Shown here one piece after another: positions 9,201-59,150 of a stretch of 64,000 nucleotides of DNA. The stretch is from NCBI GenBank assembly GCA_963766075.1, contig CAVYAN010000013.1, positions 1-64,000 on the forward strand, written 5' to 3'. Each line of letters starts with the position of its first letter. Position 1 is the stretch's first letter. The notes beneath the pieces are model-generated. The model saw only the letters and a list, made by a program, of their open reading frames with translations. It searched no databases and had not been told where the DNA came from. Source of the stretch: an uncultured cyanobacterium (GTDB lineage: Bacteria; Cyanobacteriota; Cyanobacteriia; Leptolyngbyales; Leptolyngbyaceae). Made by a program: the position numbers and the translations under genes.

Positions 9201-9309
9201 ATCGTCGGCTGCACTGGGCCGAATTCAAGCCATAAGCATGGCCTGCGATCGGCGTAGTAGGCAGTTTTCGACAAATAACCTGCTGCTTCCCTGTGGGAAG
9301 CCAGCCACA

Positions 9310-9371
9310 ACTCCGCTCAGCCAGCGAGAGATTGCTCCCTGAGCGGAGTCGAAGAGGACAATCTCAGTCGA
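9310..9371. repeat. REP-like palindromic element (core CTTCGACTCCGCTCAG), copy 1
   Basis: ACTCCGCTCAG (9310-9320) and CTGAGCGGAGTCGAAG (9339-9354) form an inverted pair. The reverse complement aligns with 15507-15548. Confidence 0.75.
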
Positions 9372-9499
9372 TAGATTCTTGCATGGAAATCTTCTTAATC
9401 TCTGAATCTTAATCTCTGATCACCTTAGTACGTCAGCACTAAAAAGGCATACTATGGTTGAGACTGAATCGCTTAATCCCTACGTTTGTTCCCCAACCG

Positions 9500-12295: not shown

Positions 12296-12390
12296 GATGA
12301 GGGAGTAAAAAAGAACTGATGAATTATCCCTTGCATCGGCGAGAGATTCGTTAAAGTAAAGGCGGAAAGAATTTAAACCTGCTCTCCACC

Positions 12391-13977: not shown

Positions 13978-14092
13978 TCTGCGTCTAGAATTGAACCCTT
14001 TGGGGGGATCAAGGGTCTAAGCCTATGAAGACGGATAAACACCGATATTTTCTGCTGCACCCCTTGATTCTTACCACGCCCAATCCTTGGAA

Positions 14093-14563
14093 ATGATGAA
14101 CGCAAAATTTTTACTCCCCGAGATCGCCCTTGGCCTCTCCGTGCTTAGCCTCTCTGCGATCGTCCTTCTGCCTGAAGCGGCACGGGCCAGTTCTCCAACC
14201 CTGAAACAACAGGCTCCAGGGCATCTGGCCCCAGAACCTATGGCCGTAGACCTCCTAGCCAGAGGCGAAGACGACAAACTTAATCTCAGTGCTGATCAAA
14301 AAATCAAAAATAAGCGCATCCGTGAAGAGAGCCGCGATCAGATTCAACGTATCCTGACAACGGACCAACAAAATCAGTGGAAAGCCGCGCAACAACAAGG
14401 CCAGAAAGGCCGAGAAGTCATGCCTTCCCTCAACCTTTCCGACAGCCAAAAAAACCAAATTCGCGCCATTCAAAAGGTCACTAAAGAGCGGATCGAAGCG
14501 CTACTCACTCCCGAACAGCGCGAAAAAATGCGCCAGCGCAGCCGCTCTAGGCGCAGTACTTAA
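14093..14563 (+). CDS. Periplasmic Spy/CpxP-like (LTXXQ) protein
   Basis: Signal peptide, repeated LNLSxxQK and ILTTDQ/LLTPEQ motifs. Confidence 0.75.
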   Translation: MMNAKFLLPEIALGLSVLSLSAIVLLPEAARASSPTLKQQAPGHLAPEPMAVDLLARGEDDKLNLSADQKIKNKRIREESRDQIQRILTTDQQNQWKAAQQQGQKGREVMPSLNLSDSQKNQIRAIQKVTKERIEALLTPEQREKMRQRSRSRRST

Positions 14564-14674
14564 CCCGTGCTTAATCTAGGCCACGGTCGAGACAAGAATC
14601 GGTCGGGATCAGAATGCAGCAGCAACTTGCCCGCTCCTGCATTCCTGGTCCTGGCCGGGTGAGGCCCAGCCGAT

Positions 14675-15034
14675 TTAGCCCAACGCCGCAGGCAAAAAGC
14701 GGAAGATCACCGAATTAATCACACTGAGCAGAAACGCACCGATGACCGCGCTCCAAAACCCCCAGCGCAACCGGAAACCCTGTACCAACCAGGCCGCTAG
14801 CCCAAAGATAAACACGTTCACCACAAAGGCAAATGCCCCAAAACTAATCCAGCTCAGCGGCAGCGTCAGGAATTTTAACAACCATCCCAGGGTTGCATTC
14901 AGAATGCCAAACACCGCTGCCGACCAAAATGCTTTTTTCAAGCCATCAATTTCGACCCCCAAAGGTAGCAGCGAAATCACATAAAGGCTGATGGCAGTCA
15001 CGGCCCACACAATTAAAAGATTGACAATCCACAT
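14675..15034 (-). CDS. 4-TM phage-holin-family (YvlD-like) membrane protein
   Basis: Four hydrophobic helices with the GILNA..LKFLTLPL..ISFG pattern. Confidence 0.75.
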   Translation of the reverse strand: MWIVNLLIVWAVTAISLYVISLLPLGVEIDGLKKAFWSAAVFGILNATLGWLLKFLTLPLSWISFGAFAFVVNVFIFGLAAWLVQGFRLRWGFWSAVIGAFLLSVINSVIFRFLPAALG

Positions 15035-15694: not shown

Positions 15695-16732
15695 AACGCG
15701 CTCTGCAATCCGCAGCTTTGCCGATCGCGATCGCGCATTTTGCTGCAACTCTACTTCTTCAGCCATGATCGGCTTTTTGGTCAACACCTTTAATCCAGGT
15801 GATTCCCTTAGCCGATGTTTGACAATTCGATCTTCTAAACTGTGGAAACTAATGATAACAATTCGTCCGCCCGGTTTTAGCCACGTTGCCGCTTTACCGA
15901 TAAACGTGGTTAAAACATCCAGTTCTGCATTCACTGCAATCCGTAGCGCCTGAAACACACGAGTCGCTGGATGGATACGCCCGTGGCGATACTTGCCCGG
16001 AACACAGCGGGCGATCGCCTCGGCCAAAGCCGTTGTCGTTTGAAATGGGCGATCCTCCACAATTCGGCGGGCAATCCGACGGGACAGTCGCTCTTCCCCG
16101 TAGGTATAAAAAATATGCGCCAGCTTGACTTCTTCCCAGTAGTTAATGATATCGCCTGCCGTCAGTTCCTGGCGCTGATCCATACGCATGTCCAAATCCG
16201 CCGTGTGGCGAAAACTGAACCCGCGCTCGGCAATGTCAAACTGGGCCGAACTGACCCCCAAGTCCGCCAGAATGCCATCGAATTTCTGGTCGCCGGGATC
16301 GTAGGCGGCAAAATTACTGCGATGAAATTGGATCCGATCCGAAAATTCCGCCAGTTCCGTCCGAGCCGCCGCGATCGCCCAAGCATCCTGATCCAGCGCC
16401 GTCACCCGCACCGTGGGATCAGCAGCCAAAATCAAGCGACTGTGCCCGCCACCCCCCACCGTGGCATCCAGGTAGCAGCCCTGGGGGACGATCGCCAATC
16501 CCGCCACCACCGCCTGCGGCAATACCGAAGTATGAGCAAAACCCGGCCCCTCTGGCAGATTTGGATTGTCTACCGCCGTATCTTGCCCGTAATTAAGCTC
16601 CAAACCATCCACCGCATTGACATCATCCACAGCGTGCGCCCACTCACAATAATCGGGATCCCGAATGGATTTTGAATCCAGCGTCATTCCTAGCTTAACC
16701 GCCCGGTTACCGCTGCGATCGCCGGACATCAT
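15680..16732 (-). CDS. rsmH: 16S rRNA (cytosine(1402)-N4)-methyltransferase; true start may be downstream
   Basis: [47 protein letters not shown] and RSRSAKLR motifs. Confidence 0.95.
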
Positions 16733-16974
16733 TTCCCTTCTATCGTTCTACTCCCAAAAGCCAATACCTACCACTCCCTTAGCGGATACAGTGCTGAACC
16801 GCCGATAGCAAGAAGCTTCCACGGGCCAAAGCCGAAAATCCCCCAGGCCAAAACCACCTAAATCTGCGGAATCAACGTGGCAGGACGCTGTACATCCCTA
16901 CGAACATCCCTATAATTAGTGAGGCATGCCAATGCAAACAGTCCAGAACCATCGCGACGGGAGACAGTCCACCT

Positions 16975-18159
16975 ATGGCAATGATCGAGACGAAAACAGA
17001 ACCCATGATCATCAACATGGGTCCGCAACATCCCTCCATGCACGGCGTGCTGCGGCTGATCGTCACTCTGGACGGGGAAAATGTGATTGACTGCGAACCT
17101 GTGATTGGCTACTTGCATCGCGGCATGGAAAAGATCGCCGAAAATCGCACTTCCGTGATGTATGTGCCCTACGTCAGCCGTTGGGACTATGCAGCGGGGA
17201 TGTTCAACGAAGCCGTCACCGTCAATGCCCCGGAAAAACTAGCCGGAATTCCCGTCCCCAAGCGGGCCAGCTACATCCGCGTGATCATGCTAGAGCTAAA
17301 CCGGATTGCCAATCACCTGCTGTGGCTTGGCCCCTTTTTGGCGGACGTGGGCGCTCAAACTCCCTTCTTCTATATTTTTCGCGAACGGGAAATGATTTAT
17401 GATCTGTGGGAAGCCGCGACGGGCTATCGCATGGTCAACAACAACTACTGGCGCATTGGCGGCGTGGCGGCGGACTTGCCCTATGGCTGGGTGGACAAGT
17501 GCGAAGAGTTCTGTGACTACTTCCTGCCTAAAGTAGATGAGTACGAAAAACTGATTACCAATAACCCCATCTTCCGCCGCCGGATTGAGGGGATTGGCAC
17601 CATTTCCCGCGAAGAAGCCATTAACTGGAGCCTCTCTGGACCCATGCTGCGGGCTTCGGGAGTGCAGTGGGATCTGCGCAAGGTTGACCACTACGAGTGC
17701 TACGACGACTTTGACTGGGATGTGCAGTGGACCACGGAAGGTGACTGTTTTGCCCGCTACGTTGTTCGGATTCGGGAAATGCGTGAGTCGATCAAAATTT
17801 TGAAACAGGCCCTGAAGGGATTACCCGGTGGCCCTTACGAAAATCTGGAAGCCCAACGCATGATCGCTGGGCCGAAGTCCGAGTGGGATGGGCCAGATTA
17901 CCAATACATTAGTAAAAAGGTGGCTCCAACCTTCAAGATTCCCAAGGGCGAACACTACGTCCGAGTGGAAAGCGGCAAGGGCGAATTGGGCATCTATATT
18001 CAGGGAAATGACAATGTGTTTCCCTGGCGGTTCAAGATTCGGGCGGCGGATTTCAACAATCTGCAAATTTTCCCGCATCTGCTGACCGGCATGAAGGTGG
18101 CGGATATTGTGGCGATTCTGGGTAGTATTGACATCATCATGGGGTCGGTGGATCGCTAA
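16975..18159 (+). CDS. ndhH: NAD(P)H-quinone oxidoreductase subunit H
   Basis: [24 protein letters not shown] and C-terminal [12 protein letters not shown]. Confidence 0.97.
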
Positions 18160-46485: not shown

Positions 46486-47337
46486 TTAATTTGAATCTCC
46501 TAAATGTCGTAACACCTCTTGACAGACAAGGGTGAGCAGTGCAATCAGAGTGAGCAAAGATGCACAGGCAAAGGCAGCTACGGTTTGGTATTCCATATAC
46601 ACGCGCTCAATGTGCAGCGTGAGCGTATTGGTTTCGTGAATGATTTTGCCAGACACAACCGCAACAGCCCCAAACTCGCCCAAGGCCCGCGCTGTGCACA
46701 ACACGACACCATACAAAACCGCCCAGCGAATATTTGGCAGGACCACCCGCCAGAACGTTTGCCAGGAATTCGCCCCCAGGGTTTGGGCCGCTTCTTCCTG
46801 CTCTGCACCCATACTTTCTAGGGCGGGCAGCACTTCCCGCACCACAAAGGGTAGGGTGATAAACAGCGTCACCAAAATCATGCCCGGTAGAGCAAAGATA
46901 ATTTTCACGTTCAGGGCCAAGACCCAAGTCTGAAACAGACTATCCGTCTGGCTGTACAACAGGATAAACATCAACCCAACAATCACCGGAGAGATGGTCA
47001 AGGGCAGATCAATTAAGCCGAGGATTAGGGATTTTCCGGGAAAGCGGTGGCGGGCCAGCAACCACGCGGTGAAGATGCCAAAGGCAGTGTTGATCGGCAC
47101 CGTTGCCAGCATAATCACCAGCGTTAGCCCGATCGCATGCAGGGCATCTGGATCCTGCAAACTGGTGCTGTACGCCACCAGCCCCTGGGCCAATGCCTGG
47201 TAAAAGATATTCACCAAGGGCAATCCCACCACGATGCCCAGAAATCCCAGTCCCACAGCATTGAGGAGATATTCTCCCCACCGGGTAGACCGCGCCGCTT
47301 TGCTCATCCCGGCCGCTTTGGCAATCCTATTCAGCAT
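46486..47337 (-). CDS. cysW: Sulfate ABC permease CysW
   Basis: IDLPLTISPVIVG, EEAAQTLGA, ARALGEFGAV and TLTLHIE motifs. Confidence 0.9.
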   Translation of the reverse strand: MLNRIAKAAGMSKAARSTRWGEYLLNAVGLGFLGIVVGLPLVNIFYQALAQGLVAYSTSLQDPDALHAIGLTLVIMLATVPINTAFGIFTAWLLARHRFPGKSLILGLIDLPLTISPVIVGLMFILLYSQTDSLFQTWVLALNVKIIFALPGMILVTLFITLPFVVREVLPALESMGAEQEEAAQTLGANSWQTFWRVVLPNIRWAVLYGVVLCTARALGEFGAVAVVSGKIIHETNTLTLHIERVYMEYQTVAAFACASLLTLIALLTLVCQEVLRHLGDSN

Positions 47338-48231
47338 CGGGACCTTCCCAACGATGGCTCCAGGCTTGCACCAGATTGGCGCATCCCAGCAATAGCAATG
47401 ACAACGTCAGGAGGACGATTGCCACCGCCGTTGCCCCACTGTAGTCAAATTCTTCCAATCGTTGAAAGATATAGACCGTTGATACGAGGGTTACAAAGGG
47501 CGTGTTGCCTGAAATCATAAAAATAATGCCAAACTCACCAATACCGCGGGCGATCGCTAACGTAAATCCGGTCAAAATCGCGGGTAATAGCTGGGGAAAG
47601 AGAATCCGCCAGAAGGTTTGCCATGTCCCCGCCCCCAGGGTATGGGCGACTTCCTCGATCTCCGGTTCCACTCCAATAAAACGGGCTGTACGGTGCGAAC
47701 AACAAACGGTAAGGATGAAAAAACCTGCGCCAAGAGCACGCCCCAAAATGAAGCCGTGAGATTGACTTCGGTGATGCCAAACCGCTGGAAAAAATTAGCC
47801 AAGGGCGTTTCCGGATCCAGAAACTGCCCCAGCGCCCCACCCGGACCATACAGGGTCAGCAAGGTGATACCTGCAACCACACCCGGAACAGCAAACGGGA
47901 GATCGACTAATCCATCCGCCAGCCGTCGCCCGGGAAACCGATGGCGCACCAAAATCCAGGCCAGAATAAACCCAAACACGCTGTTAATCAAGGCCGCCAT
48001 GAAGGCACTGAAAAAGGTCAGGCCATAGGCATGGACGGCAATGGGATGGGTGACCAATGCCCACAGATCGGTGAGCGGACGCTGTGACGCTTTCCAGAAG
48101 AGACTGGCGATCGGCAACAGCACCATCAAGCCCAAGTAGGTAAACACCATTCCCCAGCCGAGAAACGCGGCGTGGGGGCGCACGGCATGGATGTTGGCAG
48201 GTGTGACCGTTGGGGACATCAGAGATTTCAT
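47327..48231 (-). pseudogene. cysT: Sulfate ABC permease CysT with one single-base deletion (~47670)
   Basis: VDLPFAVPGVVAG and LPFVVRTVQPVL, then EPEIEEVAHTLGA..ARGIGEFG in the next frame. Adding 1 nt restores about 301 aa. Confidence 0.85.
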
Positions 48232-48241
48232 GGGCGATCGC

Positions 48242-49255
48242 CTATTGACCCACTGCCGCTCGTTGGGCTACGTCAAACAACGCACCATCGGCAAACACAT
48301 CCCGATTCACCTGTTTCCACCCGCCAAAATCTGCAACGGTATAGAGCTTTTGCACCGGTTGGTACTGCTTTTGGAATTGCTGATAAACGGCGCGATCGCG
48401 GGGACGATACCCCACCTGGGCAAAGATTTGCTGCGCCTTAGGGGTGAACAGGAACTGGGTAAAGGCTTCGGCGACAGGCCGCGTCCCCCGCTTGTCTACG
48501 ACTTTATCGACCACGGTGACGGGGAAATCCACTTGGACATTGGGGGACGGGGCAATGTAGGGAAAGTCGCGGGGAATGACATCGTTGGTGAAAATAATTT
48601 CATTCTCAAAGTTGATCATGACATCGCCTAAGCGATTCCGAATAAACGTGTCCGTAGCCTCTCGCCCGCTATTGACGAGGGATTTACTGTTTTTGACTAA
48701 CCCGTTCAGGTATGCGCGCGCTTTTTCCGGGCCTTGGGCTTTGAGAATGGAGCGATATCCCGCCAGGATGCCCCAGCGAGCATTGCCGGAAGTTTTGGGA
48801 TTAATCGCCACCAGGTGGATGTCGTTACGGGTTAAGTCTTGCCAAGTACGCAACTGCTTGGGATTACCGGGACGGGTCACCAGCACCATCACGCTGGTCA
48901 TGGGAATGCTATTGTTGGGCAAACGTTTCTGCCAATTGGCATTGACAAAACCGTTCTCAACCAATAAGTCAACAGCAAACTGGGTATTAATCGCAAAAAT
49001 ATCGGCATCCAGGCCCGCCAGAATCGATCGCGCCTGGGGGATCGTTGGCCCGTAGGATTCTTTGAAAGTGACGGTTTGCCCGGTTTTCTCCTTCCAGTAC
49101 TTTTGAAATTCTGGAATAATTCGAGAATAGGCAGGCTTGGCCACGTTGTAGCTCACCAGGGTCAGTTCCACAGGTGCAGGGGTTTGGGCAAAGCTGGGCA
49201 GAACCACCGAGAGTGATCCCACTAAACCGAGTAAAACATGACGACGTTTGATCAT
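48242..49255 (-). CDS. sbp: Sulfate/thiosulfate ABC substrate-binding protein (divergent)
   Basis: LTLVSY, RPGNPK, NPKTSGNARW, GREAT, FENE and FGGW motifs; upstream of cysT/cysW. Confidence 0.88.
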   Translation of the reverse strand: MIKRRHVLLGLVGSLSVVLPSFAQTPAPVELTLVSYNVAKPAYSRIIPEFQKYWKEKTGQTVTFKESYGPTIPQARSILAGLDADIFAINTQFAVDLLVENGFVNANWQKRLPNNSIPMTSVMVLVTRPGNPKQLRTWQDLTRNDIHLVAINPKTSGNARWGILAGYRSILKAQGPEKARAYLNGLVKNSKSLVNSGREATDTFIRNRLGDVMINFENEIIFTNDVIPRDFPYIAPSPNVQVDFPVTVVDKVVDKRGTRPVAEAFTQFLFTPKAQQIFAQVGYRPRDRAVYQQFQKQYQPVQKLYTVADFGGWKQVNRDVFADGALFDVAQRAAVGQ

Positions 49256-49665: not shown

Positions 49666-50742
49666 TCACCGCTGTCTAGGAGTTTGAAAGGTGGTGGCGA
49701 TCGCGATGGCCATCTGCTGAAAAACCTGTCCTGCCGGAGCGGTGGGAATGGATAGGGTGATCGGTTGCCCGGTGTCGCCGCCCGTGGCAATGCACGGATC
49801 AATCGGCACCTGGCCCAGTAATGCCGTCTGCAATTCCGTGGCGAGCTGTTGTCCGCCGCCGCTGCCGAAGATTGGCGTGGGGTGGCCGCAGCGATCGCAC
49901 AGCAGATAGCTCATGTTTTCCACAATGCCCAACACCGGAATGCCCACCTGCCGAAACATGTGAATACTGCGCCGGACATCGGCCACCGCCACTTGCTGCG
50001 GCGTCGTCACCAGAATCACGCCGCAAATCGGGCTTTCCTGAACGATGGTAATTTGGGCATCCCCCGTACCGGGCGGTAGATCGATGAGCAAAAAGTCCAG
50101 GTCGCCCCAGTCCACTTGGTGAATAAACTGCGTAATGATCTTGTGCAGTACGGGGCCGCGCCACGCCAGGGGATGATCCGGTGCTGCCAATAACCCCACG
50201 GACATGACCTTGATCCCGTGGGCCTGCAAGGGTAAAAATCGTTGCCCCGCCGGGGTATCCACAACCTGCACATCGGCCTGTCCCAACCCCAGCATCTGGG
50301 GCACATTGGGGCCGTAGACATCGGCATCGAGCAGACCCACCTTTGCCCCTTGTTGCTGCAAGGCGGCGGCTAAATTCACGGCCACGGTAGATTTGCCCAC
50401 GCCACCCTTGCCGCTGGAAATCGCTAGGGTCACTTTGACCTGCGGAATGGTACAGGTCTGGATGTAGGTCTTTTTGCACCAGGTGAGATCGGCTAATGCG
50501 GTTTGGATGCGATCGCGAAATTCCTCCTGATGCGCCCCGATATATAGGCGCAGATACAAATAATCATCCACAACGTTCAGGTTTCGCACCATGCCTAGAC
50601 TCACGACATCGTTCTGAAGAACCGGCTCTTGAACAGTTTTGAGACAGGCGATCGCGTCTTGTTGGCGAGCCGATACGATGGCTTCAGAGACGGGCGTCGG
50701 TAAGGGTTCTGACGATGAATGAGTGTCGGGGTAAAATGGCAT
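49666..50742 (-). CDS. mrp: Mrp/NBP35 (ApbC) iron-sulfur cluster carrier ATPase
   Basis: N-terminal DUF59-like domain, SGKGGVGKST, DADVYGPN, DLPPGTGD and ENMS..CDRC motifs. Confidence 0.93.
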   Translation of the reverse strand: MPFYPDTHSSSEPLPTPVSEAIVSARQQDAIACLKTVQEPVLQNDVVSLGMVRNLNVVDDYLYLRLYIGAHQEEFRDRIQTALADLTWCKKTYIQTCTIPQVKVTLAISSGKGGVGKSTVAVNLAAALQQQGAKVGLLDADVYGPNVPQMLGLGQADVQVVDTPAGQRFLPLQAHGIKVMSVGLLAAPDHPLAWRGPVLHKIITQFIHQVDWGDLDFLLIDLPPGTGDAQITIVQESPICGVILVTTPQQVAVADVRRSIHMFRQVGIPVLGIVENMSYLLCDRCGHPTPIFGSGGGQQLATELQTALLGQVPIDPCIATGGDTGQPITLSIPTAPAGQVFQQMAIAIATTFQTPRQR

Positions 50743-50867
50743 GGAATGGCATTTATTTGAGTTTGCTGAGTATAAAGTTAGTTGCCAGGTCACCCACCTA
50801 GCTACGAATCACAGAATAGAACGAATCATAAAAATGAGATGGATGTTTTTCGGCTCTCTCGGAACGG

Positions 50868-51269
50868 CTATGGAAACAACCCTAGGCGAATCCATAATTT
50901 CCGTGCGGCGACTTGAGTGGAACTGTTCATTTCCAAACAGTCCACTGTAACTTTTCCAACGGAAGTTATGCCAAGAATCTTGGCCGATTCAATTTCAATT
51001 TGAAAATGCTCGGTCCAGGGATTTTTTCTTGGATGAAAAAGATAAACTTCAACAGTAGAATCAGGCAGGATGCCACGGATGCGATTGCCTTTGCGGAGAT
51101 TGCAAGAGCGACAGGCCAGCGCTAGATTTGCTGCATCATTTTCACCTTGCCGAGAACTTGGGATAATATGCTCAACCTCAAATGGAAAATTGAAAACAAC
51201 CTCAGGCGCTTGGCAGTACTCACAACGATGATTGGTGCGTTCTGCAATCTCAGGATAATACGGATTCAT
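50868..51269 (-). CDS. HNH endonuclease
   Basis: RCEYC, EVEHIIP, NLALACRSCN and LFHPR..WTEHF motifs. Confidence 0.88.
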   Translation of the reverse strand: MNPYYPEIAERTNHRCEYCQAPEVVFNFPFEVEHIIPSSRQGENDAANLALACRSCNLRKGNRIRGILPDSTVEVYLFHPRKNPWTEHFQIEIESAKILGITSVGKVTVDCLEMNSSTQVAARKLWIRLGLFP

Positions 51270-51628
51270 GCAGTTCCTGGCTGAATCAATGTGGCAGTGC
51301 GTGCCGTTGCTGCTTTCAATTCAGCTTCAATTAACCCCTCTAACTCGGTCTGTTGTTCAGGTAACAAGGATTGTTCTTGATCTCGCGCTAGCCGCCATAG
51401 ACTCATTAACTCTGATAATCGTTTTTGTTGATCAGCGCTGAAAAAGCGATCAGGGCGAAAGCTTTGAATTAGCAGGAGCGCACTGAATTCAGCTTCATCC
51501 AATTGGACAGTTAACGCATCTAAGGCTTGACCCGCAGTTTTGCCAACGGAGTGTTTATCCCCCGCAATGGCACGATAGGATGTCTCACCGCTGGCATCAG
51601 AGATAGGCAAGATTGCGACTGTAGTCAT
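51266..51628 (-). CDS. Small hypothetical protein coupled to the HNH gene (possible antitoxin/partner)
   Basis: ATGA overlap with the HNH gene; GKTAGQALDAL motif and an acidic helical C-terminus. Confidence 0.7.
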   Translation of the reverse strand: MTTVAILPISDASGETSYRAIAGDKHSVGKTAGQALDALTVQLDEAEFSALLLIQSFRPDRFFSADQQKRLSELMSLWRLARDQEQSLLPEQQTELEGLIEAELKAATARTATLIQPGTA

Positions 51629-51732
51629 GTTTCCAGCTTCAGACGAATATCCCACATTATAGTCCTCTTAAGGGCTTTGTGAGGGATCCACCTAGCCCAC
51701 AGATATGCCATACAGTCCAAAGTCCCGATCCA

Positions 51733-52887
51733 TTACAAAACCGTCGTGTGGCTGGAATACTGACGTTTGATACCAAAGTAGGTTTTCCAGTGGTGCCAAG
51801 CGCGTTGGCCTGTAATTAGCTCTTCGGCATAGGCGGATTGAGTGAATAGGGGGAATGGAGTCGTATCGACACCGATGCCTGTCCGCAGGCGTTCCCGCCG
51901 CTGATCGGCTAACCAATCGTTGTAGCTTTCATACACAATATGGCCATCGGGGGCATCTAAGGTAGCCGCCCGAATGCGTGCATCTAACTCCTCGTAGCGT
52001 TGTTGCTCAGCAGTCGAGAGGACCAGTGGCTCGACCTCGACCTCATACCCCAGTTGCGTCAATTCTGCTCCCGCGACACCCGCGAAGATGCGCTGATCGC
52101 GAAGACTCAGCAGATCTTTGTAGAGGCCGATGTAGCGATCGCTAATGGGATGTCCGAGCGGCCTATGATCCCGTGCCTGGGCCCGACGTTGGGCAATATC
52201 CGTTTGGTGAAACTCCAGCATGACTGGATCGTAGGGTTCACCCAAAAAGTGACATACGGTTTGGATCGTTTTCTCTGGCTCACGCACCAGGGTTTCATAG
52301 CGCACATCCAGCCATTGATGACTGGATAGCTTTTCCCGCCAGGGCTTAACCGTATCCTGGCAGAGTTGCCAAATTGTGGCGGCACTGTAGATATTCGTGG
52401 GGCCAAAGGAGGATTCCAGATATTCAGCACTGACATCACGGCCATCGCGGGTCAAGTAAATGAACTGAGCATTGGGAAAATCACTCAGAATGGCATCGAT
52501 AAAAAACAAGTTGAAGGGCGTCTTTTCGCCCCAGCGGGGTTTGCCTTTGTAATCGGCATACCAGCCCAACACGGCGGCGTATAGCCCACCAAAGCTTAGC
52601 TCCGGCAGGTGTTCCAGAATTTCATCCACAATAGTTCTGGGATTCACCGGCACGCCCCAAAAGGGTGTCTTTAGTCCAAAAATTAGCTCTTCGGTTAAGG
52701 TGCGCAAGCGATCGGGGTCGGATAAATCCCCATAGGTATGCAGATAGGGATAAAAGCGCGGGTAGAACCAGGCAACTTCGGGCACGGCTATGCGGGGATG
52801 GCAGCCGAGAATTGTCATTAGCAGGGTGGTGCCCGATCGCTCGGCTCCAATAACAAAAATCGGTGGGTCAGACAATTGAATCGTCAT
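51733..52887 (-). CDS. Sulfotransferase-family protein
   Basis: 5'-PSB loop IGAERSGTTLL, WGEKTP, 3'-PB RDGRDV and VRYETLV..PE motifs. Confidence 0.88.
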   Translation of the reverse strand: MTIQLSDPPIFVIGAERSGTTLLMTILGCHPRIAVPEVAWFYPRFYPYLHTYGDLSDPDRLRTLTEELIFGLKTPFWGVPVNPRTIVDEILEHLPELSFGGLYAAVLGWYADYKGKPRWGEKTPFNLFFIDAILSDFPNAQFIYLTRDGRDVSAEYLESSFGPTNIYSAATIWQLCQDTVKPWREKLSSHQWLDVRYETLVREPEKTIQTVCHFLGEPYDPVMLEFHQTDIAQRRAQARDHRPLGHPISDRYIGLYKDLLSLRDQRIFAGVAGAELTQLGYEVEVEPLVLSTAEQQRYEELDARIRAATLDAPDGHIVYESYNDWLADQRRERLRTGIGVDTTPFPLFTQSAYAEELITGQRAWHHWKTYFGIKRQYSSHTTVL

Positions 52888-52926: not shown

Positions 52927-53923
52927 CTAGCTCAGTTGCGATGCGGCTTGTGCTCTGGTGTGAATTGCATCGATCGCCCGCTGGGCATAGATCGACACCT
53001 CGCGATCGGGATCATCCAACGCTTGTTGCAGGGCGTTGAGGGCATCGGCGTTGCCGAGTTGGCCGATCGCGATCTGTGGCTTCCTTCCGCACATCTGAAA
53101 ACTCATCCGCCAATGCTTGAATCAATGCCTGAATCAGATCGGGTAATAGGTTATTACTGAGCGGTTTTTGGGGCGTTTTTTGCAATGCTTGGAGGACAAA
53201 CTTGCGCACCTGCCAATGGGCATCCTGGAGAGCGATCGCCAGCGCTGGTAGGGCCTCTGGATGCGCCTGGATGGCCAAGGACTTAGCCGCATTGCGCCGC
53301 ACCTGCCAATCCGTATCCGAGGTCACCGCCTGACTCAACTGGGCAATCACGCCCTCATCACTCAAATGCCCCAAGGTCAGCACCACCTCCCGCCGCACCG
53401 TCGCCTCCGGATCTGCGAGTAAATCAAACACCGGAGGACAGAGATCGACCTGATTGAGATAGCGTAAAGTAGTCACCGCCGCTGCTCGCAACTCCGGATC
53501 GGCAGATTGAAAAAAGGGCAGAATGGCAGGCAATGCCTGGATATCGTGAATCTTGCGCAACAGAATGAGAATACTTTTCTGTGCGAGGGGGTGTTGCAAG
53601 CTGTCTAGCAATAACAACAGATGATCCGAGGTAATCAATTCTCCTAAAGCTGACTGGGCAACATCCCGAATTTCGGCATCCTCCGAGGCCAAACTGGCGA
53701 GTAACGCGGGCACGGCTTCGGGGTTGGCGAACTCCCCCAACACAGCGATCGCCAATTTTTGGACTCCCAGATCTGGATCCTGAAGGGCCGTTATGACGGG
53801 CGCGATCGCCGCATCATCCGCCAGATGCTGCAGGGTTTTGAGGGCGACTAGGCGATCGCTGACCGTGGGCGATCTTAACAGTTCTATCCAGGGAGTCAGT
53901 TCGTCATTAAGGGCGATCGACAT
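52927..53923 (-). pseudogene. HEAT-repeat protein with a +1 insertion (~53074) near the 3' end
   Basis: Repeats ..DxDxxVRxxAxxaLG. The last repeat IAIGQLGNADALNALQQALDDPDREV continues in the shifted frame to TAG at 52927. Confidence 0.82.
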
Positions 53924-53968
53924 GATGTTGGCTCAAGAAATTTGGCTCAAAAAGTTTGGCTCAAGAAA

Positions 53969-54196
53969 TTACCTCAAAAGAAAGGGAATTTGCACCGTGA
54001 TGGCATTAGTGGGACACTCTTTTTCACAGGGCAAACAGAACCAGCATTCGTCGTATTTCATGTAAGCTTTGCCCGTTTCGGGGTCTTTAGCCAGCACATC
54101 CAAGGGGCAGACCTCAATACAGGCCGTGCATTTCTCTAAACATTTCGATTCATCGACAATGACGGGAACATCGACCCGTTGCGTTGCTAATGCCAT
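53969..54196 (-). CDS. 2x[4Fe-4S] ferredoxin (AprB/AsfB-like)
   Basis: CLEKCTACIEVCP and CWFCLPCEKECP motifs. Confidence 0.9.
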   Translation of the reverse strand: MALATQRVDVPVIVDESKCLEKCTACIEVCPLDVLAKDPETGKAYMKYDECWFCLPCEKECPTNAITVQIPFLLR

Positions 54197-54298
54197 AACT
54201 AAAAAGATTTCCTTTGGTTCATAATTTACTCCAGGGGACATTACACTAGACGTTTGCCAACTGAATGCCCTTTGTCTCTTTCTTAATTTGCATCCTCC

Positions 54299-56044
54299 TT
54301 ACCGAGCGGCGACATCATAAACTTCCGTTTGAATATCAACATCGACTACATAGGGTTCAACGGGACGCTTGAGTAACACCATATTGCCCGATGCATCCTG
54401 TTGCAAATTGACATGGCAAAACCACTCTTCATTGTTCTTTTCAGGATAATCGACTCGATAGTGATACAGTCCCCAGCGACTTTCACGCCGATAGAGCGAC
54501 GCCCGCGCCGCCATTTCAGCACAATCTCGAATGAAATGTACCTCCATACAGCGCATTAATTCATGAGGATCCCGTGCCCCCATTTGATCCAGAGTTTCGT
54601 GATACCGGACAAAATTATTCAACCCAATTTCCATTTTGTTCGTGACCTTGGGCGGCTGCAGATAATCATTCACCAAACGCCGCAGTTTATACTCCACTTG
54701 GGTATGGGGAATCCCATTCGGTCGAGTCAGAGGCGCATAGACCCGCGTTTTTTCGGTTTCTAGAGCCTCCGGATCTGGCTCTTGATGTTCCAAATCTTGC
54801 AAATACTGCACCGCATGCTCCCCCGCCAAGCGACCAAACACAAAGGCCCCAATCATGTAATTGTGCGGCACGCTGGCGAGATCCCCGGCGGCATACAGTC
54901 CTGGCACCGTGGTTTCGGCGTTTTCGTTCACCCACACCCCGGAGGCGCTGTGACCGCTGCACAGGCCAATTTCGGAAATGTTCATTTCGATGCTGTGGGT
55001 GCGATAGTTTTCACCCCGTCCAGCATGAAAGCGATCGCGACTCGGACGCTCATTCGCCCACAAAATCGACTCGATTTCAGCGATCGTATCTTCATCTAGA
55101 TGGGTCATTTTGAGCTGGATCGGGCCTTTACCGGAGTTGAGTTCTTTCCAAACCTCCAGCATCATTTGCCCGCTCCAATAATCGCAATTGATGAAGCGGT
55201 AGCCTTCGGCATTGGCGGTATAAGCCCCAAACGGCCCCGCCACATAGGCACAGGCTGGCCCGTTGTAGTCCTTAATCAAGGGATTAATTTGGAAGCATTC
55301 AATATTCGTCAGTTCCGCACCTGCGTGGTACGCCATCGAGTAGCCATCGCCAGCATTGGTAGGGTTTTCGTAGGTGCCATACAGATAGCCAGAGGCTGGC
55401 AATCCTAGGCGGCCACTGGCTCCTGTGCAGAGGATGACGGCTTTGGCTTGAATGATCACGAAGTCGCCACTGCGGACATCAAACCCCACGGCTCCGATCG
55501 CCCGTCCCCCTTGCACCAATACCCGTGTGGCCATCACCCGATTGGTCACGCGAACTTTATGCCGTTTGACTTGGCGCGTCAAAATCGTTTTTAGATCTTT
55601 CCCCTCGGGCATGGGTAATACGTATTTCCCCACCCGATGCACTTGTTTGACATCGTAATTGCCCTGGGCATCCTTTTGAAACTGCACCCCCCAGCTTTCT
55701 AGTTCCTGGATGGTTTCGTAGCCTAGTTTTCCGGTTTGTAAGACAGCTTTTTGGTGCAGGATGCCATCATTGGCGATCGTCACTTCTCGCGTATATTTTT
55801 CCGGCGTGGAATGCCCCGGAATCACGGCAGTGTTCACGCCATCCATACCCATGGCGATCGCGCCACTGCGGCGGATATTGGCCTTCTCCAAAATCAGCAC
55901 ATCGGTGTCAGGATTAGCCTGTTTTGCCTTAATCCCCGCCATTGTGCCCGCTGTGCCACCGCCAATCACCAAGACATCGGTTTGGACCCGTTGCGTCTTG
56001 ATCGCCAGATCAGGGATAGAAAGAGGATGAATGGACTGCGACAT
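54299..56044 (-). CDS. FAD flavoprotein of the fumarate reductase/APS reductase family (AprA/AsfA-like)
   Basis: IGGGTAG, RSGAIAMGMDGVN (compare AprA RSGAVAQG), PGLYAAGD and RRESRWG..HYRVDYP. No SdhA covalent-FAD SHT motif. Confidence 0.85.
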   Translation of the reverse strand: MSQSIHPLSIPDLAIKTQRVQTDVLVIGGGTAGTMAGIKAKQANPDTDVLILEKANIRRSGAIAMGMDGVNTAVIPGHSTPEKYTREVTIANDGILHQKAVLQTGKLGYETIQELESWGVQFQKDAQGNYDVKQVHRVGKYVLPMPEGKDLKTILTRQVKRHKVRVTNRVMATRVLVQGGRAIGAVGFDVRSGDFVIIQAKAVILCTGASGRLGLPASGYLYGTYENPTNAGDGYSMAYHAGAELTNIECFQINPLIKDYNGPACAYVAGPFGAYTANAEGYRFINCDYWSGQMMLEVWKELNSGKGPIQLKMTHLDEDTIAEIESILWANERPSRDRFHAGRGENYRTHSIEMNISEIGLCSGHSASGVWVNENAETTVPGLYAAGDLASVPHNYMIGAFVFGRLAGEHAVQYLQDLEHQEPDPEALETEKTRVYAPLTRPNGIPHTQVEYKLRRLVNDYLQPPKVTNKMEIGLNNFVRYHETLDQMGARDPHELMRCMEVHFIRDCAEMAARASLYRRESRWGLYHYRVDYPEKNNEEWFCHVNLQQDASGNMVLLKRPVEPYVVDVDIQTEVYDVAAR

Positions 56045-56116: not shown

Positions 56117-57196
56117 TTAAGAAGCGCCTTTCCAGATGGCATCCTCAATCTTGATCGGTTTCGGAATCAGCTTGATGGCTTGAAATGTATCAGCGATCTT
56201 TTGTTGATTGCTAATCACCTCTGGTGTGAGCGGGAGTACGCCATATTCCCGGCGCTTTTCGGCCTTTTCCAAAATAGCGGCATCAATGCCTAGTTCTGGA
56301 GCTAGGAATTTAGCCACCTCTGCCGAATTTGTTGCAGCCCAACTACTTTCTTTTTTCACTTCATCCAGAACCTGCTTCAGGGCTGCCGGGGACTTATCGA
56401 CAAAGGACTGCGCGGCGAGATAGTACCCTCGGTTAGGGGCTAGCCCGGTTGCATCCACCAAGACACGCGCATTGGCTTGGGCTTCCGCCGCTGCTAGGTA
56501 GGGATCCCATATCGCCCAGGCATCAATATCCTTCCGCTCAAAGGCTGCGCGTGCATCCGCTGGCTTGAGAAAACTGAATTGAATATCCTCGGGTTTGAGA
56601 CCTACCGATTGCAGTGCACTCACGATCAAATAGTGCGTGTTCGAGCCTTTAGCCACGCCTACCTTTTTGCCTTTTAAATCCGTAAGGGTTTTGAGGGGAG
56701 AGTCCTGGGGCACCACGATCGCCTCGGCCTTCGGACTCCAGGGATCGTAGGCTACGTAACGCACAGGCACACCCGTCGCTTGGGCAATAATCGGCGGGGA
56801 TTCGCCTGTGTAGCCAAAGTCCACCGAACCTGCATTGAGAGCTTCCAGCATAGGCGGCCCCGCCGGAAATTCAGTCCAGGTGACTTTGGTCCCTGATGCG
56901 GCAAAGGCTTTTTCTAGGCTCTGCTTGGTTTTCAACGAACTGAGGATGGTCGCGGCTTTTTGATAACCGATGCGCACCGTAGTGGCGCTGGTTGCGGCAC
57001 TCGAAGCTGCGGGTGAAGCGGAGGGTGAAGCCGCCGTGGGAGTCGGGGTATTAGAAGAACAGGATGAGACAATGAGGCTCAAACTCAGGCCGATCGCAAA
57101 AAAGTAGGTCAATGAGCGTCCGGAGAGTGACGAAAATTGATTCCAGATGAATTTGAGTGTGTTGAACAGGGAACGAATCTTGAATTGAGTAAACAC
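56117..57196 (-). CDS. ssuA: Aliphatic sulfonate ABC substrate-binding lipoprotein
   Basis: Lipobox VSSC, RIGYQK, EFPAGPPMLEALNAGSVDFG, KGS and WAIWDPY motifs. Confidence 0.92.
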   Translation of the reverse strand: MFTQFKIRSLFNTLKFIWNQFSSLSGRSLTYFFAIGLSLSLIVSSCSSNTPTPTAASPSASPAASSAATSATTVRIGYQKAATILSSLKTKQSLEKAFAASGTKVTWTEFPAGPPMLEALNAGSVDFGYTGESPPIIAQATGVPVRYVAYDPWSPKAEAIVVPQDSPLKTLTDLKGKKVGVAKGSNTHYLIVSALQSVGLKPEDIQFSFLKPADARAAFERKDIDAWAIWDPYLAAAEAQANARVLVDATGLAPNRGYYLAAQSFVDKSPAALKQVLDEVKKESSWAATNSAEVAKFLAPELGIDAAILEKAEKRREYGVLPLTPEVISNQQKIADTFQAIKLIPKPIKIEDAIWKGAS

Positions 57197-57276
57197 CTTG
57201 AAGCTCCTAAGAACAATGTATTAAGCAGGTTGAAGGGGATGTTGAATCTCCAGTTGAATCTCCATAGGCTCTAGTC

Positions 57277-57843
57277 CTAACTGGCGAGGAGCAGCGGTTC
57301 AGCAACTGGGGCGGAGGGTTGCACCGCTGCGATAAATTCCTGCAAAGACTGTTGCAACCGCTGCTCAATTTCTTCCTCAAGCTGAATACTGCCGTCTTCC
57401 TGCTTCTGAATCTGCTTGTCGATCGCGTACACCGTGGTAATAAACTGCCGCGCACCCAATTCAGACAAAACGGGCTTGAGGGCATAATCGATCGCTAAGA
57501 AGTGCGCCAGTGTCCCTGCAGTGGCGATCGGGAAAATTACTTTTCCGACCAATGCTTTTTGGGGAAACAGATCCAGCAAGGCTTTGAGGACTCCGGTATA
57601 AGCCGCTTTGTAAATGGGAGTTGCAATAATCACGCCATCGGCTTGGGCGAGCAACTGCTTAAGCTTTTCCAGGGCAGGGCTGTCGTATTGTCCGTAGGCC
57701 AACACCTCGGCAGGGATATCCCGCACGGACAAAATCTCTGTTTGTATACCCGCTGCGTGCAATTGCCGTGTGGCGTATTCCAACACACTGTAGGTGCGGG
57801 AGGGATGGGTTGGGCTGCCTGCGATCGCTAAAATAGTCGTCAT
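57277..57843 (-). CDS. ssuE: NADPH-dependent FMN reductase
   Basis: AGSP..PSRT, ATPIYKAAYTGVLK and HFLAIDYALKPVL motifs. Confidence 0.93.
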   Translation of the reverse strand: MTTILAIAGSPTHPSRTYSVLEYATRQLHAAGIQTEILSVRDIPAEVLAYGQYDSPALEKLKQLLAQADGVIIATPIYKAAYTGVLKALLDLFPQKALVGKVIFPIATAGTLAHFLAIDYALKPVLSELGARQFITTVYAIDKQIQKQEDGSIQLEEEIEQRLQQSLQEFIAAVQPSAPVAEPLLLAS

Positions 57844-57989
57844 GAGAACACCTGATTTCGTAAATTAGAGCAATGAGTTCGAGCTATGAGGTTAGTGACA
57901 TTCAATCGATGAGATTGCGCCAGTCATTAGAGATTGATCGAACCCATCGAGCCAGAGGATCTAGGGGATACAGACTCAATCAACCGTGC

Positions 57990-59150
57990 TCAATCAACCG
58001 TAGTTAGCGGCTGCAACGATGGTGATGGGGGAAAAGTTTCATTGGCAACCACTTCGCCAAACGGACTGAATAGGACTTGCCGCTCTAATTGCGGTTGATG
58101 TTCTAGCGGTAAATGGGGGAACAACAGTTCAGCGACACGATAGGCTTCCTCCAGATGGGGATAACCCGACAGAATGAACGTCTCAATTCCCAAGTCGCGA
58201 TATTCTTGCAACCGCGCCGCAACGGTTTCAGGATCGCCTACCAGCGCTGTTCCGGCCCCACCCCGGACCAATCCCACCCCAGCCCAAAGGTTAGGACTGA
58301 TTTCCAAAGCTTCCCGATTGCCACTGTGGAGTTGGGTCATTCGGCGTTGCCCTTCCGAGTCCATCCGGGCGTAGGCTTTTTGCGCGGTGGAGATCGCCGT
58401 CTCATCCACATACCGAATCAATTGATTGGCGGCATCCCAGGCTGCGGATTCCGTTTCCCGAACAATGATGTGCAGCCGAATGCCAAATCGCAGAGTCCGA
58501 CCTGCGGCCGCGGCCCGTTGCCGCACCGCCTCTATCTTTTCCGCTACTTGGGCAGGTGCTTCGCCCCAGGTGAGGTAGACATCCACATGTTTGGCGGCGA
58601 TGTCCTGGGCAATGGGCGAAGACCCGCCAAACCAGAGAGGCGGATGGGGCTGCTGTAGCGGTGTAAATAGGAGCTTCCCTCCCTGCACATCCAGATAATC
58701 GCCCTTAAAGTTAGACTCTTTCCCCTGGGAAATTTCTCGCCAAACCGTGAGAAATTCATCGGTGAGGCGATAGCGATCGTCATGACTGAGATGGACCCCA
58801 TCTCCTGCCAATTCAACGGGATCACCACCGGTAACGACATTAATGAGTAACCGCCCCCCAGTCAGACGATCAAAGGTTGCTGCCATCCGTGCCGCGACAC
58901 CGGGAGACATCAAGCCGGGACGAATGGCCACCAAAAATTTCATCTGAGTGGTATGAGCGGCCAAATAGGACGCCACCACCCAGGCATCCTCACAGGAGCG
59001 GCCTGTGGGGAGCAACGCCCCTACGTAGCCGAGGCGATCAACAGCTTGGGCAATCTGGCGGAGATAGGTGGCATCAGTCGAACGCCCCCCAATCCCAGTT
59101 CCCAGATAACGACCGTCTCCATGAGTGGGAATAAACCAAAAAACTTGCAT
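57990..59150 (-). CDS. ssuD: FMNH2-dependent alkanesulfonate monooxygenase
   Basis: [43 protein letters not shown] and SGYPHLEE motifs. Confidence 0.96.

What the first reader, a model, noticed from the sequence alone, without database searches (positions are those of the whole stretch)
52423..52449. Sulfotransferase with Glu in place of the PAPS 3'-phosphate-binding Ser: possible APS/AMP-dependent enzyme
Seen: the 3'-PB motif reads RDGRDVSAE, while the 5'-PSB loop (RSGTT) is intact. Known: in PAPS-dependent sulfotransferases the motif is R-x7-S (e.g. RNAKDVAVS), with Arg and Ser binding the 3'-phosphate. Inference: an acidic residue here would disfavour PAPS/PAP and could accept a free 3'-OH, i.e. 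APS/AMP. That is the substrate pair of the neighbouring AprA/B-like proteins and would be an unusual cofactor switch.
Basis: partly seen in the sequence, partly recalled or inferred. Interest (0 to 1): 0.75.

Follow-up and report, generated by a model that had tools for sequence, protein, structure and literature searches.

The report
Sulfotransferase clade lacking the PAPS 3'-phosphate serine
This cyanobacterial gene belongs to a widespread, uncharacterised group of sulfotransferase-like enzymes in which the serine that normally holds the 3'-phosphate of the cofactor PAPS is always an acidic residue, so the enzyme likely works with a different nucleotide (predicted AMP/APS) on an imported sulfated compound.

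Summary
Window 52423-52449 (- strand) encodes RDGRDVSAE, residues 147-155 of a 384-aa Sulfotransfer_3 protein (51733-52887) with an intact RSGTT loop.

Profile alignments to TPST1/2 and the CurM sulfotransferase put Glu155 on the 3'-PB serine. The change is not private. In 80 of 80 orthologous loci from many phyla the site is Asp (65) or Glu (15). 103 of 115 representatives, nearly all more distant relatives, keep Ser. The TPST-type catalytic Glu position is also changed (Val38).

- Only 13 of 80 loci carry the flavoprotein, and the acid is present regardless.
- The flavoprotein occurs without this enzyme in 16 of 300 other cyanobacteria.
- Its closest solved relative is a PAPS reductase, and its specificity loop fits neither the APS nor the PAPS type.

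The constant partners are anion transporters: DASS plus TauE in sulfate reducers, SsuA-type ABC systems elsewhere. Seven of 20 genomes carrying the enzyme, including Desulfovibrio piger, show no APS kinase.

Best reading (about 0.37): a sulfuryl-transfer enzyme that uses AMP/APS instead of PAP/PAPS for sulfate-ester salvage. This is untested biochemically. I class it as a new variant of a known kind.

The parts
51733..52887 (-). Sulfotransferase-fold gene (384 aa), member of a conserved ~384-aa clade
   Evidence: ORF. PF13469 E 1.8e-38. 120 listed homologues at 54-98% identity across phyla. Model pLDDT 75.7, pTM 0.81. TPST/OLS/CurM are the top folds.
52423..52449 (-). 3'-PB-type motif RDGRDVSAE (res 147-155). 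Arg147 is kept; Glu155 sits where PAPS enzymes have Ser.
   Evidence: sequence. (profile alignment to TPST1 and CurM ST). D 65, E 15 of 80 loci. Ser in 103 of 115 representatives.
52825..52839 (-). 5'-phosphosulfate-binding loop RSGTT (res 17-21)
   Evidence: Invariant E-R-S-G-T-T in 20 of 20 aligned members. Shared with Ser-type relatives. Aligns to the TPST PSB loop.
52768..52782 (-). P-E-V-A-W (res 36-40). Val38 aligns with the TPST catalytic Glu; the invariant Glu37 lies one residue earlier.
   Evidence: alignment (PSB Arg +21 = TPST1 E100 = Val38). TPST1 catalytic residues R79/E100/K159/S286 from a PMC5562738 passage. P-E-V-x-W in 79 of 79 loci that cover it. Ser-type relatives have Glu at 38 in 80%.
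53012..53923 (-). HEAT-repeat protein (303 aa), partner of the flavoprotein module
   Evidence: HEAT_2 E 2.6e-42. Matches the C-terminal part of the fused model PRK13800, positions 609-859. Found next to the flavoprotein/Fd in other cyanobacteria and Sorangium.
53969..54241 (-). Small 2x[4Fe-4S] ferredoxin (90 aa), AprB-like N-terminal part
   Evidence: Fer4_7 and related families. Best NCBIfam hit aprB, 39 bits, far below the cut-off of 135.65.
54299..56044 (-). FAD flavoprotein (581 aa) of family PRK08275, related to AprA and to the archaeal PAPS reductase alpha subunit
   Evidence: NF006131 1015 bits (cut-off 587). aprA TIGR02061 198 bits (cut-off 641.75). 8A8O_A E 1.1e-68; 1JNR_A 2.9e-48.
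55619..55630 (-). Flavoprotein loop G139-K-Y-V142, aligned to the nucleotide-specificity residues of PAPS/APS reductases
   Evidence: alignments. Y-V-L-P-M-P-E-G invariant in 25 of 25 orthologue rows (several loci are the same gene fetched twice); the K is K/T/S/A. Residue roles from PMC10322725 passages.
56117..59150 (-). ssuA, ssuE, ssuD upstream on the same strand (sulfonate binding protein, FMN reductase, alkanesulfonate monooxygenase)
   Evidence: TIGR01728 263 bits, TIGR03567 233 bits, TIGR03565 613 bits, all over their cut-offs.

Best explanation
The gene encodes a cytoplasmic sulfotransferase-fold enzyme of a conserved clade in which the 3'-phosphate-binding serine is replaced by Asp/Glu. 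It likely transfers a sulfuryl group between an imported sulfated anion and an adenine nucleotide that lacks the 3'-phosphate (predicted AMP/APS) rather than PAP/PAPS.

Shown:
- the fold;
- the intact 5'-phosphosulfate loop and Lys122;
- the clade-wide Ser-to-acid switch;
- the altered catalytic-base position;
- the near-constant linkage to anion transporters;
- the position of this copy at the end of a same-strand run of sulfur-scavenging genes, ssuD-ssuE-ssuA-flavoprotein-ferredoxin-HEAT-ST (co-transcription was not tested).

Inferred:
- The carboxylate pairs with the retained Arg147, fills the 3'-phosphate pocket and repels PAP/PAPS.
- The physiological direction would be sulfate ester + AMP to alcohol/phenol + APS.
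- The APS would then be reduced to sulfite by the adjacent AprAB/PAPS-reductase-like pair where present, by dissimilatory AprAB in sulfate reducers, or by CysH-type reductases elsewhere. This would save the ATP otherwise spent on sulfate activation.
For: 1. Position 155 is D or E in 80 of 80 orthologous loci from Cyanobacteria, Nitrospirota, Desulfobacterota, Bacillota, Proteobacteria, Myxococcota, Planctomycetota and Verrucomicrobiota. Relatives at 30-40% identity have Ser (103 of 115 representatives).
2. In a quick tree all D/E rows fall in one clade (28 rows, SH-aLRT 97).
3. The nucleotide scaffold is kept. R17-S-G-T-T, R118-W-G-x-K122-T-P, R147-D-G-R-D and Y197-E-x-L are shared with Ser-type relatives.
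4. The position of the TPST catalytic base (R+21) is Val in the family but Glu in 80% of Ser-type relatives. The four-row sister group has no Glu there at all. A phosphate oxygen acting as acceptor would need no base (inference).
5. No credible APS kinase was found in 7 of 20 genomes carrying the enzyme, including the isolate D. piger ATCC 29098.
6. 76 of 80 loci have a transporter gene within 6 kb: DASS 45, TauE 44, ABC ATPase 28, SsuA-like binding protein 23, PhnD-like 9. D. piger has a tight tauE-ST-dass-sigma54 regulator unit.
7. In the window the gene follows ssuD, ssuE, ssuA and the flavoprotein module, and it lies near cysPTW.
Against: - No assay or ligand model was possible, so the nucleotide is inferred from one residue.
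- Arg147, the other 3'-phosphate ligand, is invariant.
- 9 of 20 carrier genomes clearly have an APS kinase and 4 more have intermediate hits.
- Most of the 7 genomes without one are metagenome bins. The window's own genome is only 85% complete, and its three family relatives all have the kinase.
- The acid could instead tune catalysis through the PSB-loop Arg17.
- Ser or Thr does occur inside the clade: P0123, a second copy in L048 (16548-17099), and Thr in P0105.
- The adjacent reductase is nearer to a PAPS reductase than to APS reductases and is absent from 67 of 80 loci.
- TauE and DASS may simply carry inorganic sulfate or sulfite (PMC5840216, passages).
Confidence: 0.37

Rival explanations
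1. It is an ordinary PAPS-dependent sulfotransferase that sulfates a small anionic metabolite. The 3'-phosphate would be held by Arg147 and other residues, and the acid would tune catalysis, for example by pairing with the PSB-loop Arg17 as Ser138 does with Lys48 in cytosolic enzymes (recalled).
For: All closest structures are PAP/PAPS enzymes. Arg147 and the PSB loop are invariant. 9 of 20 carrier genomes clearly have an APS kinase. Ser-type copies exist within the clade.
Against: A carboxylate beside a phosphate is unfavourable, and the switch is fixed in 80 of 80 loci. 7 of 20 carrier genomes show no APS kinase, including D. piger ATCC 29098. The TPST-type catalytic base position is lost. 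The sulfur-starvation context of this copy argues for scavenging rather than spending activated sulfate.
Confidence: 0.25
2. It is a reverse PAP/PAPS shuttle. The enzyme would load sulfate from an ester onto catalytic amounts of PAP, which cells make anyway from CoA (established knowledge). A PAPS-reductase-like flavoprotein would then release sulfite and regenerate PAP.
For: The neighbour's best solved relative is the M. thermolithotrophicus PAPS reductase. The scheme needs no APS kinase, so it also fits the 7 kinase-less genomes.
Against: The acid at the 3'-phosphate site argues against PAP binding. The flavoprotein lacks two of the three residues proposed to hold the 3'-phosphate: R121 is Tyr and S122 is Val. 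The flavoprotein is linked in only 13 of 80 loci.
Confidence: 0.1
3. The clade has left nucleotide-dependent transfer. It could be a sulfate-ester hydrolase or lyase, or a sensor or accessory protein for the adjacent anion transporters, that uses the old phosphosulfate loop to bind a sulfate group.
For: Two canonical catalytic or cofactor positions are changed together. There is a clade-specific, highly conserved C-terminal ~150 residues, modelled with low confidence (pLDDT under 50 for 243-255, 305-320 and 362-384). The only constant neighbours are transporters.
Against: The whole nucleotide-binding scaffold shared with PAPS enzymes stays invariant. 55-98% identity across phyla suggests a demanding catalytic site.
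Confidence: 0.15

Closest known systems
Tyrosylprotein sulfotransferases TPST1/TPST2 (PDB 5WRI, 3AP1/3AP3)
   Same: Best sequence and fold matches (profile E 5e-15; Foldseek E 8e-10). Same PSB loop Arg, same Lys (K122 = TPST1 K159) and same R-D-G-R start of the 3'-PB element.
   Different: Ser is replaced by Asp/Glu. The catalytic Glu position is Val, with a Glu one residue earlier. The protein is soluble and bacterial, carries an extra conserved C-terminal ~150 residues, and sits in a small-anion transporter context rather than a protein-substrate context.
CurM / olefin synthase activating sulfotransferase domains (PDB 4GBM, 4GOX)
   Same: Sulfotransfer_3 fold. Full-length alignment over residues 10-231 (E 1.8e-13). 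Cyanobacterial.
   Different: Those are PAPS-dependent polyketide-synthase domains with Ser at the motif end (R-h-p-y-s-v-i-e-S). This protein stands alone; no longer fused forms were found.
Ser-type Sulfotransfer_3 relatives (330-350 aa, 30-40% identity; uncharacterised)
   Same: Same domain and same spacing RDGRD...FGP.
   Different: They keep Ser at 155 and P-x-E-S-H at 36-40. They lack the last ~40-60 residues of the family.
PAPS-independent arylsulfate sulfotransferases (ASST)
   Same: Would work alike if the best reading is right: sulfuryl transfer from a sulfate ester without PAPS.
   Different: ASSTs are an evolutionarily independent group, according to the abstract of bioRxiv 10.64898/2026.10.08.757629 seen in the search listing. 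Pfam gave only Sulfotransfer_3 and Sulfotransfer_1 for this protein.
M. thermolithotrophicus PAPS reductase (8A8O) and dissimilatory APS reductase AprAB (1JNR/2FJA), for the neighbouring genes
   Same: FAD alpha subunit of the fumarate-reductase family plus a 2x[4Fe-4S] partner.
   Different: The specificity loop is K-Y-V, against K-R-S in the PAPS reductase and Q-W-Q in AprA. The ferredoxin is short. A HEAT-repeat partner is present, fused in model PRK13800.

Membership tests
Sulfotransfer_3 (PF13469) / sulfotransferase fold | Pfam model over the gathering score | tested here: met
   133.4 bits against 27
Sulfotransfer_3 (PF13469) / sulfotransferase fold | Sulfotransferase alpha/beta fold | tested here: met
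   Foldseek top hits TPST2/TPST1/OLS/CurM, prob 1.0. N-terminal 240 residues mostly pLDDT 80-97.
PAPS-dependent sulfotransferases | 5'-PSB loop (K/R-x-G-T-T) | tested here: met
   E-R-S-G-T-T invariant in 20 of 20
PAPS-dependent sulfotransferases | 3'-PB motif Arg | tested here: met
   R147 invariant and aligned to the TPST/CurM Arg
PAPS-dependent sulfotransferases | 3'-PB motif Ser (R-x7-S) | tested here: not met
   Glu155 here. D 65, E 15 of 80 loci.
PAPS-dependent sulfotransferases | Use of PAPS as donor | not testable with these tools
   Indirect only: no APS kinase found in 7 of 20 carrier genomes
TPST-type catalytic set (R79, E100, K159, S286 of TPST1) | Catalytic Glu at PSB Arg +21 | tested here: not met
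   Val38, with Glu37 adjacent. Residue list from a PMC5562738 passage.
TPST-type catalytic set (R79, E100, K159, S286 of TPST1) | Catalytic Arg and Lys | tested here: met
   R17 and K122 align to R79 and K159
TPST-type catalytic set (R79, E100, K159, S286 of TPST1) | Ser286 equivalent | tested here: inconclusive
   Sequence alignments stop near residue 234. The C-terminal model has low confidence.
Dissimilatory APS reductase AprA (neighbour gene) | NCBIfam aprA equivalog over its cut-off | tested here: not met
   TIGR02061 198 bits against 641.75. PRK06854 319.5 against 557.
Dissimilatory APS reductase AprA (neighbour gene) | Conserved Gln (A. fulgidus alpha-145) in the substrate loop | tested here: not met
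   Aligned residue is Val142. Role of the Gln from a PMC10322725 passage.
MtPAPSR-type PAPS reductase (neighbour gene) | Lys120-Arg121-Ser122 proposed to hold the 3'-phosphate | tested here: not met
   K-Y-V in cyanobacteria and T/S/A-Y-V elsewhere
PRK08275 flavoprotein family (neighbour gene) | NCBIfam NF006131 over its cut-off | tested here: met
   1015.2 bits against 587
Arylsulfate sulfotransferase (ASST) | Homology to the ASST family | tested here: not met
   The Pfam scan returned only PF13469 and PF00685

The most novel reading that the evidence does not exclude
This is an ATP-free route for sulfate esters. A sulfotransferase run backwards loads the sulfuryl group of an imported ester straight onto AMP, making APS. 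Sulfate reducers such as Desulfovibrio piger could then respire ester sulfate without paying for sulfate activation. Cyanobacteria, methanotrophs and others could pass the APS to a ferredoxin-linked AprAB-like reductase during sulfur starvation.
Probability: 0.2. Interest if true: 0.85.

Novelty: new variant of a known kind. Interest (0 to 1): 0.62.

Why it matters
PAPS is treated as the universal donor of this enzyme superfamily; a 2026 JACS paper says so outright (PMC13449962, passages). A widespread clade that has swapped the 3'-phosphate ligand for a carboxylate would break that rule.

It would also give a simple sequence marker (R-x7-D/E plus P-E-V-x-W) for finding such enzymes.

If the enzyme makes APS from sulfate esters, three things follow:
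- It would change energy budgets for sulfate reducers in guts and sediments.
- It would add a new entry point to sulfur assimilation.
- It would offer a cheap biocatalytic route to activated sulfate.

Even if the nucleotide guess is wrong, two units are conserved, uncharacterised sulfur modules worth testing. One is tauE-ST-dass-regulator in sulfate reducers. The other is SsuA-flavoprotein-ferredoxin-HEAT in cyanobacteria.

Tried and rejected
- Linkage test. I asked whether D/E tracks the flavoprotein. It does not, so I dropped this as support.
- Cross-tabulation inside Cyanobacteria. The enzyme was found in 0 of 300 other genomes at E<=1e-80, so no comparison was possible there.
- Fused forms. 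None at E<=1e-40 among proteins of 673-2000 aa. The tool itself calls this weak evidence.
- Own-genome APS kinase absence. I discounted it because the genome is 85% complete and 3 of 3 family relatives have the kinase.
- Literature searches that found no description of this clade, of an APS-dependent sulfotransferase, or of an AprA-like/sulfotransferase pairing. One search failed on term syntax and I did not repeat it. The JACS 2026 paper (PMC13449962, passages) picked D. piger ATCC 29098 for a 'unique, nonhomologous' Sulfotransfer_3 gene but did not characterise it. I did not verify that their gene is this one.
- Earlier scan notes. Only two distant sulfatase/sulfotransferase clusters appeared, sharing 4 of 180 words. 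There was nothing on this genome.
- Ser at +6 as a structural stand-in. Rejected because the position varies (S/C/A/V) and is two helix positions away.
- A possible second lost 3'-phosphate ligand. Column 252 is K/R in 41% of Ser-type relatives and Tyr in all sampled family members. I left it as a hint only, because that region aligns and models poorly.
- Complex prediction was not used. The report claims no protein-protein contact, and APS, PAPS and PAP are not among its ligands.
- The careful tree did not finish, so only the quick tree is reported.

Full report
**1.
The ORF 51733-52887 on the minus strand encodes 384 residues. The reverse complement of 52423-52449 reads RDGRDVSAE, residues 147-155. 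RSGTT is residues 17-21.

The protein is a clear Sulfotransfer_3 member (E 1.8e-38). Its closest solved relatives by sequence are TPST1/TPST2, the CurM and olefin-synthase sulfotransferase domains, and mycobacterial Stf1. An AlphaFold model built on 20 homologues has mean pLDDT 75.7 and pTM 0.81, with the N-terminal 240 residues mostly above 80. It hits the same PAP-bound structures first.

In the model the motif is strand 141-146, a loop, and helix 149-158. A family profile aligns without gaps across the motif to TPST1 and CurM ST, with D/E155 on their Ser. One pairwise phmmer alignment put a gap there. The identical spacing from RDGRD to FGP in 102 Ser-type relatives supports the ungapped register. 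The residue-level role of that Ser and Arg in binding the 3'-phosphate is recalled knowledge, not a result of a call.

**2. The Glu is not a private mutation.**
The protein has 991 homologues at E<=1e-5. The best 120 are about 384 aa long and 54-98% identical. In a 20-row alignment R147-D-G-R-D151 is invariant, and position 155 is D in 16 rows, E in 3 and T in 1 (P0105).

I fetched 80 orthologous loci from Cyanobacteria, Nitrospirota, Desulfobacterota, Bacillota, Proteobacteria, Sorangium, Planctomycetota and Verrucomicrobiota. All 80 have an acid: D 65, E 15. The Ser at +6 is S 55, C 14, A 10, V 1, so it is no conserved substitute.

A scan of 1.84 billion representatives shows that the orthologues collapse into essentially one 50%-identity cluster. 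The next relatives are 30-40% identical and 330-350 aa long. Of 115 aligned rows, 103 have Ser, 6 have D, 4 have E, 1 has A and 1 has G.

In a quick maximum-likelihood tree of 59 rows (midpoint root; the careful search did not finish), every D/E row lies in one clade of 28 rows with SH-aLRT 97. That clade is the orthologue group plus a four-row sister group. Inside it P0123 has Ser, and my pattern did not parse P0100. Locus L048 carries an acid-type copy (8077-9213) and a second copy, cut by the contig end, with Ser (16548-17099).

**3. A second canonical site changed with it.**
TPST1's catalytic residues are R79, E100, K159 and S286 (PMC5562738, passage). In one search the PSB Arg aligns to R17 and K159 to K122. 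The residue at Arg+21 (E100) aligns to Val38, with an invariant Glu37 one position earlier.

Comparing 60 orthologues with 102 Ser-type relatives gives the following:
- Position 38 is V (100%) against E (80%).
- Glu37 and Trp40 are specific to the orthologues.
- The PSB loop, R118-W-G-x-K-T-P, R-D-G-R-D and Y197-E-x-L are shared.

P-E-V-x-W is present in 79 of the 79 loci that cover it. The four sister-group rows have no Glu at 37 or 38. So the nucleotide scaffold is kept, while the 3'-phosphate Ser and the catalytic-base position are both remodelled.

**4. The linkage argument does not hold.**
Within 6 kb of the gene, the 80 loci show these neighbours:

| Neighbour | Loci of 80 |
|---|---|
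| DASS transporter | 45 |
| TauE/SafE-family protein | 44 |
| Sigma-54 activator with PrpR_N domain | 31 |
| ABC ATPase | 28 |
| ABC permease | 24 |
| SsuA-like binding protein | 23 |
| Flavoprotein | 13 |
| Ferredoxin | 12 |
| GntR/UTRA regulator | 10 |
| PhnD-like binding protein | 9 |
| HEAT protein | 8 |

Families were named. The flavoprotein always comes with the ABC system and never with TauE or DASS. 76 of 80 loci have at least one transporter gene, and three of the four without one have a short flank.

Linked copies have D 7 and E 6. Unlinked copies have D 58 and E 9. In D. piger ATCC 29098 the unit is tauE (9177-9953), ST (10001-11155), dass (11254-12732) and a sigma-54 regulator (13034-14995) in L067.

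Conversely, the flavoprotein orthologue (83-88% identity) is present in 16 of 300 other cyanobacterial genomes, while the sulfotransferase was found in 0 of those 300. In five such genomes it sits with SsuA, the ferredoxin and the HEAT protein, and no sulfotransferase lies in the ~20-kb stretches fetched. In two of them genes of the Cys/Met PLP family and an alpha/beta hydrolase lie between flavoprotein and ferredoxin.

Sorangium So ce56 has the flavoprotein-ferredoxin-HEAT-SsuA set about 1.2 Mb from its sulfotransferase. Two proteobacterial bins with the sulfotransferase gave no flavoprotein match at E<=1e-20.

**5. What the neighbours are.**
The flavoprotein passes NCBIfam PRK08275 (1015 bits) but not aprA (198 against a cut-off of 641.75). 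Its best solved relative is the alpha subunit of the M. thermolithotrophicus PAPS reductase (8A8O, E 1.1e-68), ahead of A. fulgidus AprA (2.9e-48).

Jespersen et al. 2023 (PMC10322725, passages read) attribute PAPS preference to Lys120, Arg121 and Ser122. They say the conserved Gln alpha-145 of APS reductases would clash with the 3'-phosphate. In one search these positions align to K140-Y141-V142 here. Y-V-L-P-M-P-E-G is invariant in 25 of 25 orthologue rows, and the Lys is K/T/S/A. The enzyme therefore fits neither type, and its substrate is open.

**6. Does the enzyme need PAPS?**
I searched the APS-kinase domain (PF01583) in 20 genomes that carry the sulfotransferase:
- Clear hits (177-227 bits): 9 genomes.
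- Intermediate hits (65-108 bits): 4 genomes.
- Nothing beyond P-loop-level hits (at most about 22 bits over the first ~45 positions): 7 genomes.

The seven are the window's genome, D. piger ATCC 29098, G344, G389, G430, G460 and G461. The window's genome is 85% complete and its three family relatives have the kinase, so that absence is weak. D. piger is an isolate, and the rest are bins. The result fits PAPS independence but does not prove it. PAP itself is made from CoA in all cells (established knowledge), so a PAP shuttle is not excluded.

**7. Reading.**
My best-supported reading, at about 0.37, is a sulfuryl-transfer enzyme that still binds an adenine 5'-nucleotide but not one with a 3'-phosphate, and that acts on an imported anionic sulfated compound.

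The direction sulfate ester + AMP to APS is inferred from four things: the scavenging context here, the transporter linkage, the loss of the general base, and the presence of APS-consuming reductases in the carriers.

The rivals are a normal PAPS enzyme with a tuned active site (0.25), a PAP/PAPS shuttle with the PAPS-reductase-like neighbour (0.10), and loss of nucleotide-dependent transfer (0.15).

**8. Novelty.**
I found no paper describing this clade or an APS-using member of this fold. A 2026 study chose D. piger for its unusual Sulfotransfer_3 gene but did not characterise it (PMC13449962, passages).

It is a new variant of a known kind. The fold and most motifs are standard, and the cofactor site is not.

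Noticed in passing
window 47327-48231 (-): cysT is split into two overlapping frames. The 219-aa piece matches CysT profile positions 7-161 and the 139-aa piece matches 158-264. This is a frameshift or an assembly error, lying between the sulfate-binding protein gene (48242-49255) and cysW (46486-47337).
   Followed up: partly
window 50868-51655 (-): An HNH endonuclease (133 aa) overlaps by 4 bases a 129-aa ORF with no family hit. The pair is wedged between the sulfotransferase and an Mrp/NUBPL-type Fe-S carrier gene (49666-50793). It could be a small mobile or toxin-antitoxin-like insertion.
   Followed up: no
L048 16548-17099 (+), and protein P0123: A Ser-bearing subtype exists inside the acid clade (RDGRDVAAS / RDGRDVVSS with the family's P-E-V-T-W). 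In L048 it sits in the same locus as an acid-type copy and the flavoprotein. This is a natural pair for testing the role of residue 155.
   Followed up: partly
window 53012-56044; L091-L096: The SsuA-flavoprotein-ferredoxin-HEAT set is a conserved, apparently uncharacterised sulfur-starvation module in its own right: 16 of 300 other cyanobacteria, and Sorangium. A fused flavoprotein-HEAT model exists (PRK13800), and the substrate loop Y-V-L-P-M-P-E-G is invariant.
   Followed up: partly
80 loci: TauE/DASS and the flavoprotein are mutually exclusive neighbours of the sulfotransferase. No locus has both: 13 have the flavoprotein, and 44 and 45 have TauE and DASS. I have no explanation for this.
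   Followed up: no
window 51733-52887, residues 305-320 and 243-255: The nearly invariant segment L-D-A-P-E-G-H-I-V-Y-E-S-Y-N-D-W is modelled with pLDDT below 50. It may be a lid that orders only on a ligand or partner.
   Followed up: no
G046 (complete cyanobacterial genome): This genome has the flavoprotein module but no sulfotransferase, and it shows no APS-kinase hit above about 23 bits.
   Followed up: no
L091 7289-9738, L092 12084-14577: In other cyanobacteria a Cys/Met-metabolism PLP enzyme and an alpha/beta hydrolase lie between the flavoprotein and ferredoxin genes. My reading is that they are MetY- and MetX-like.
   Followed up: no
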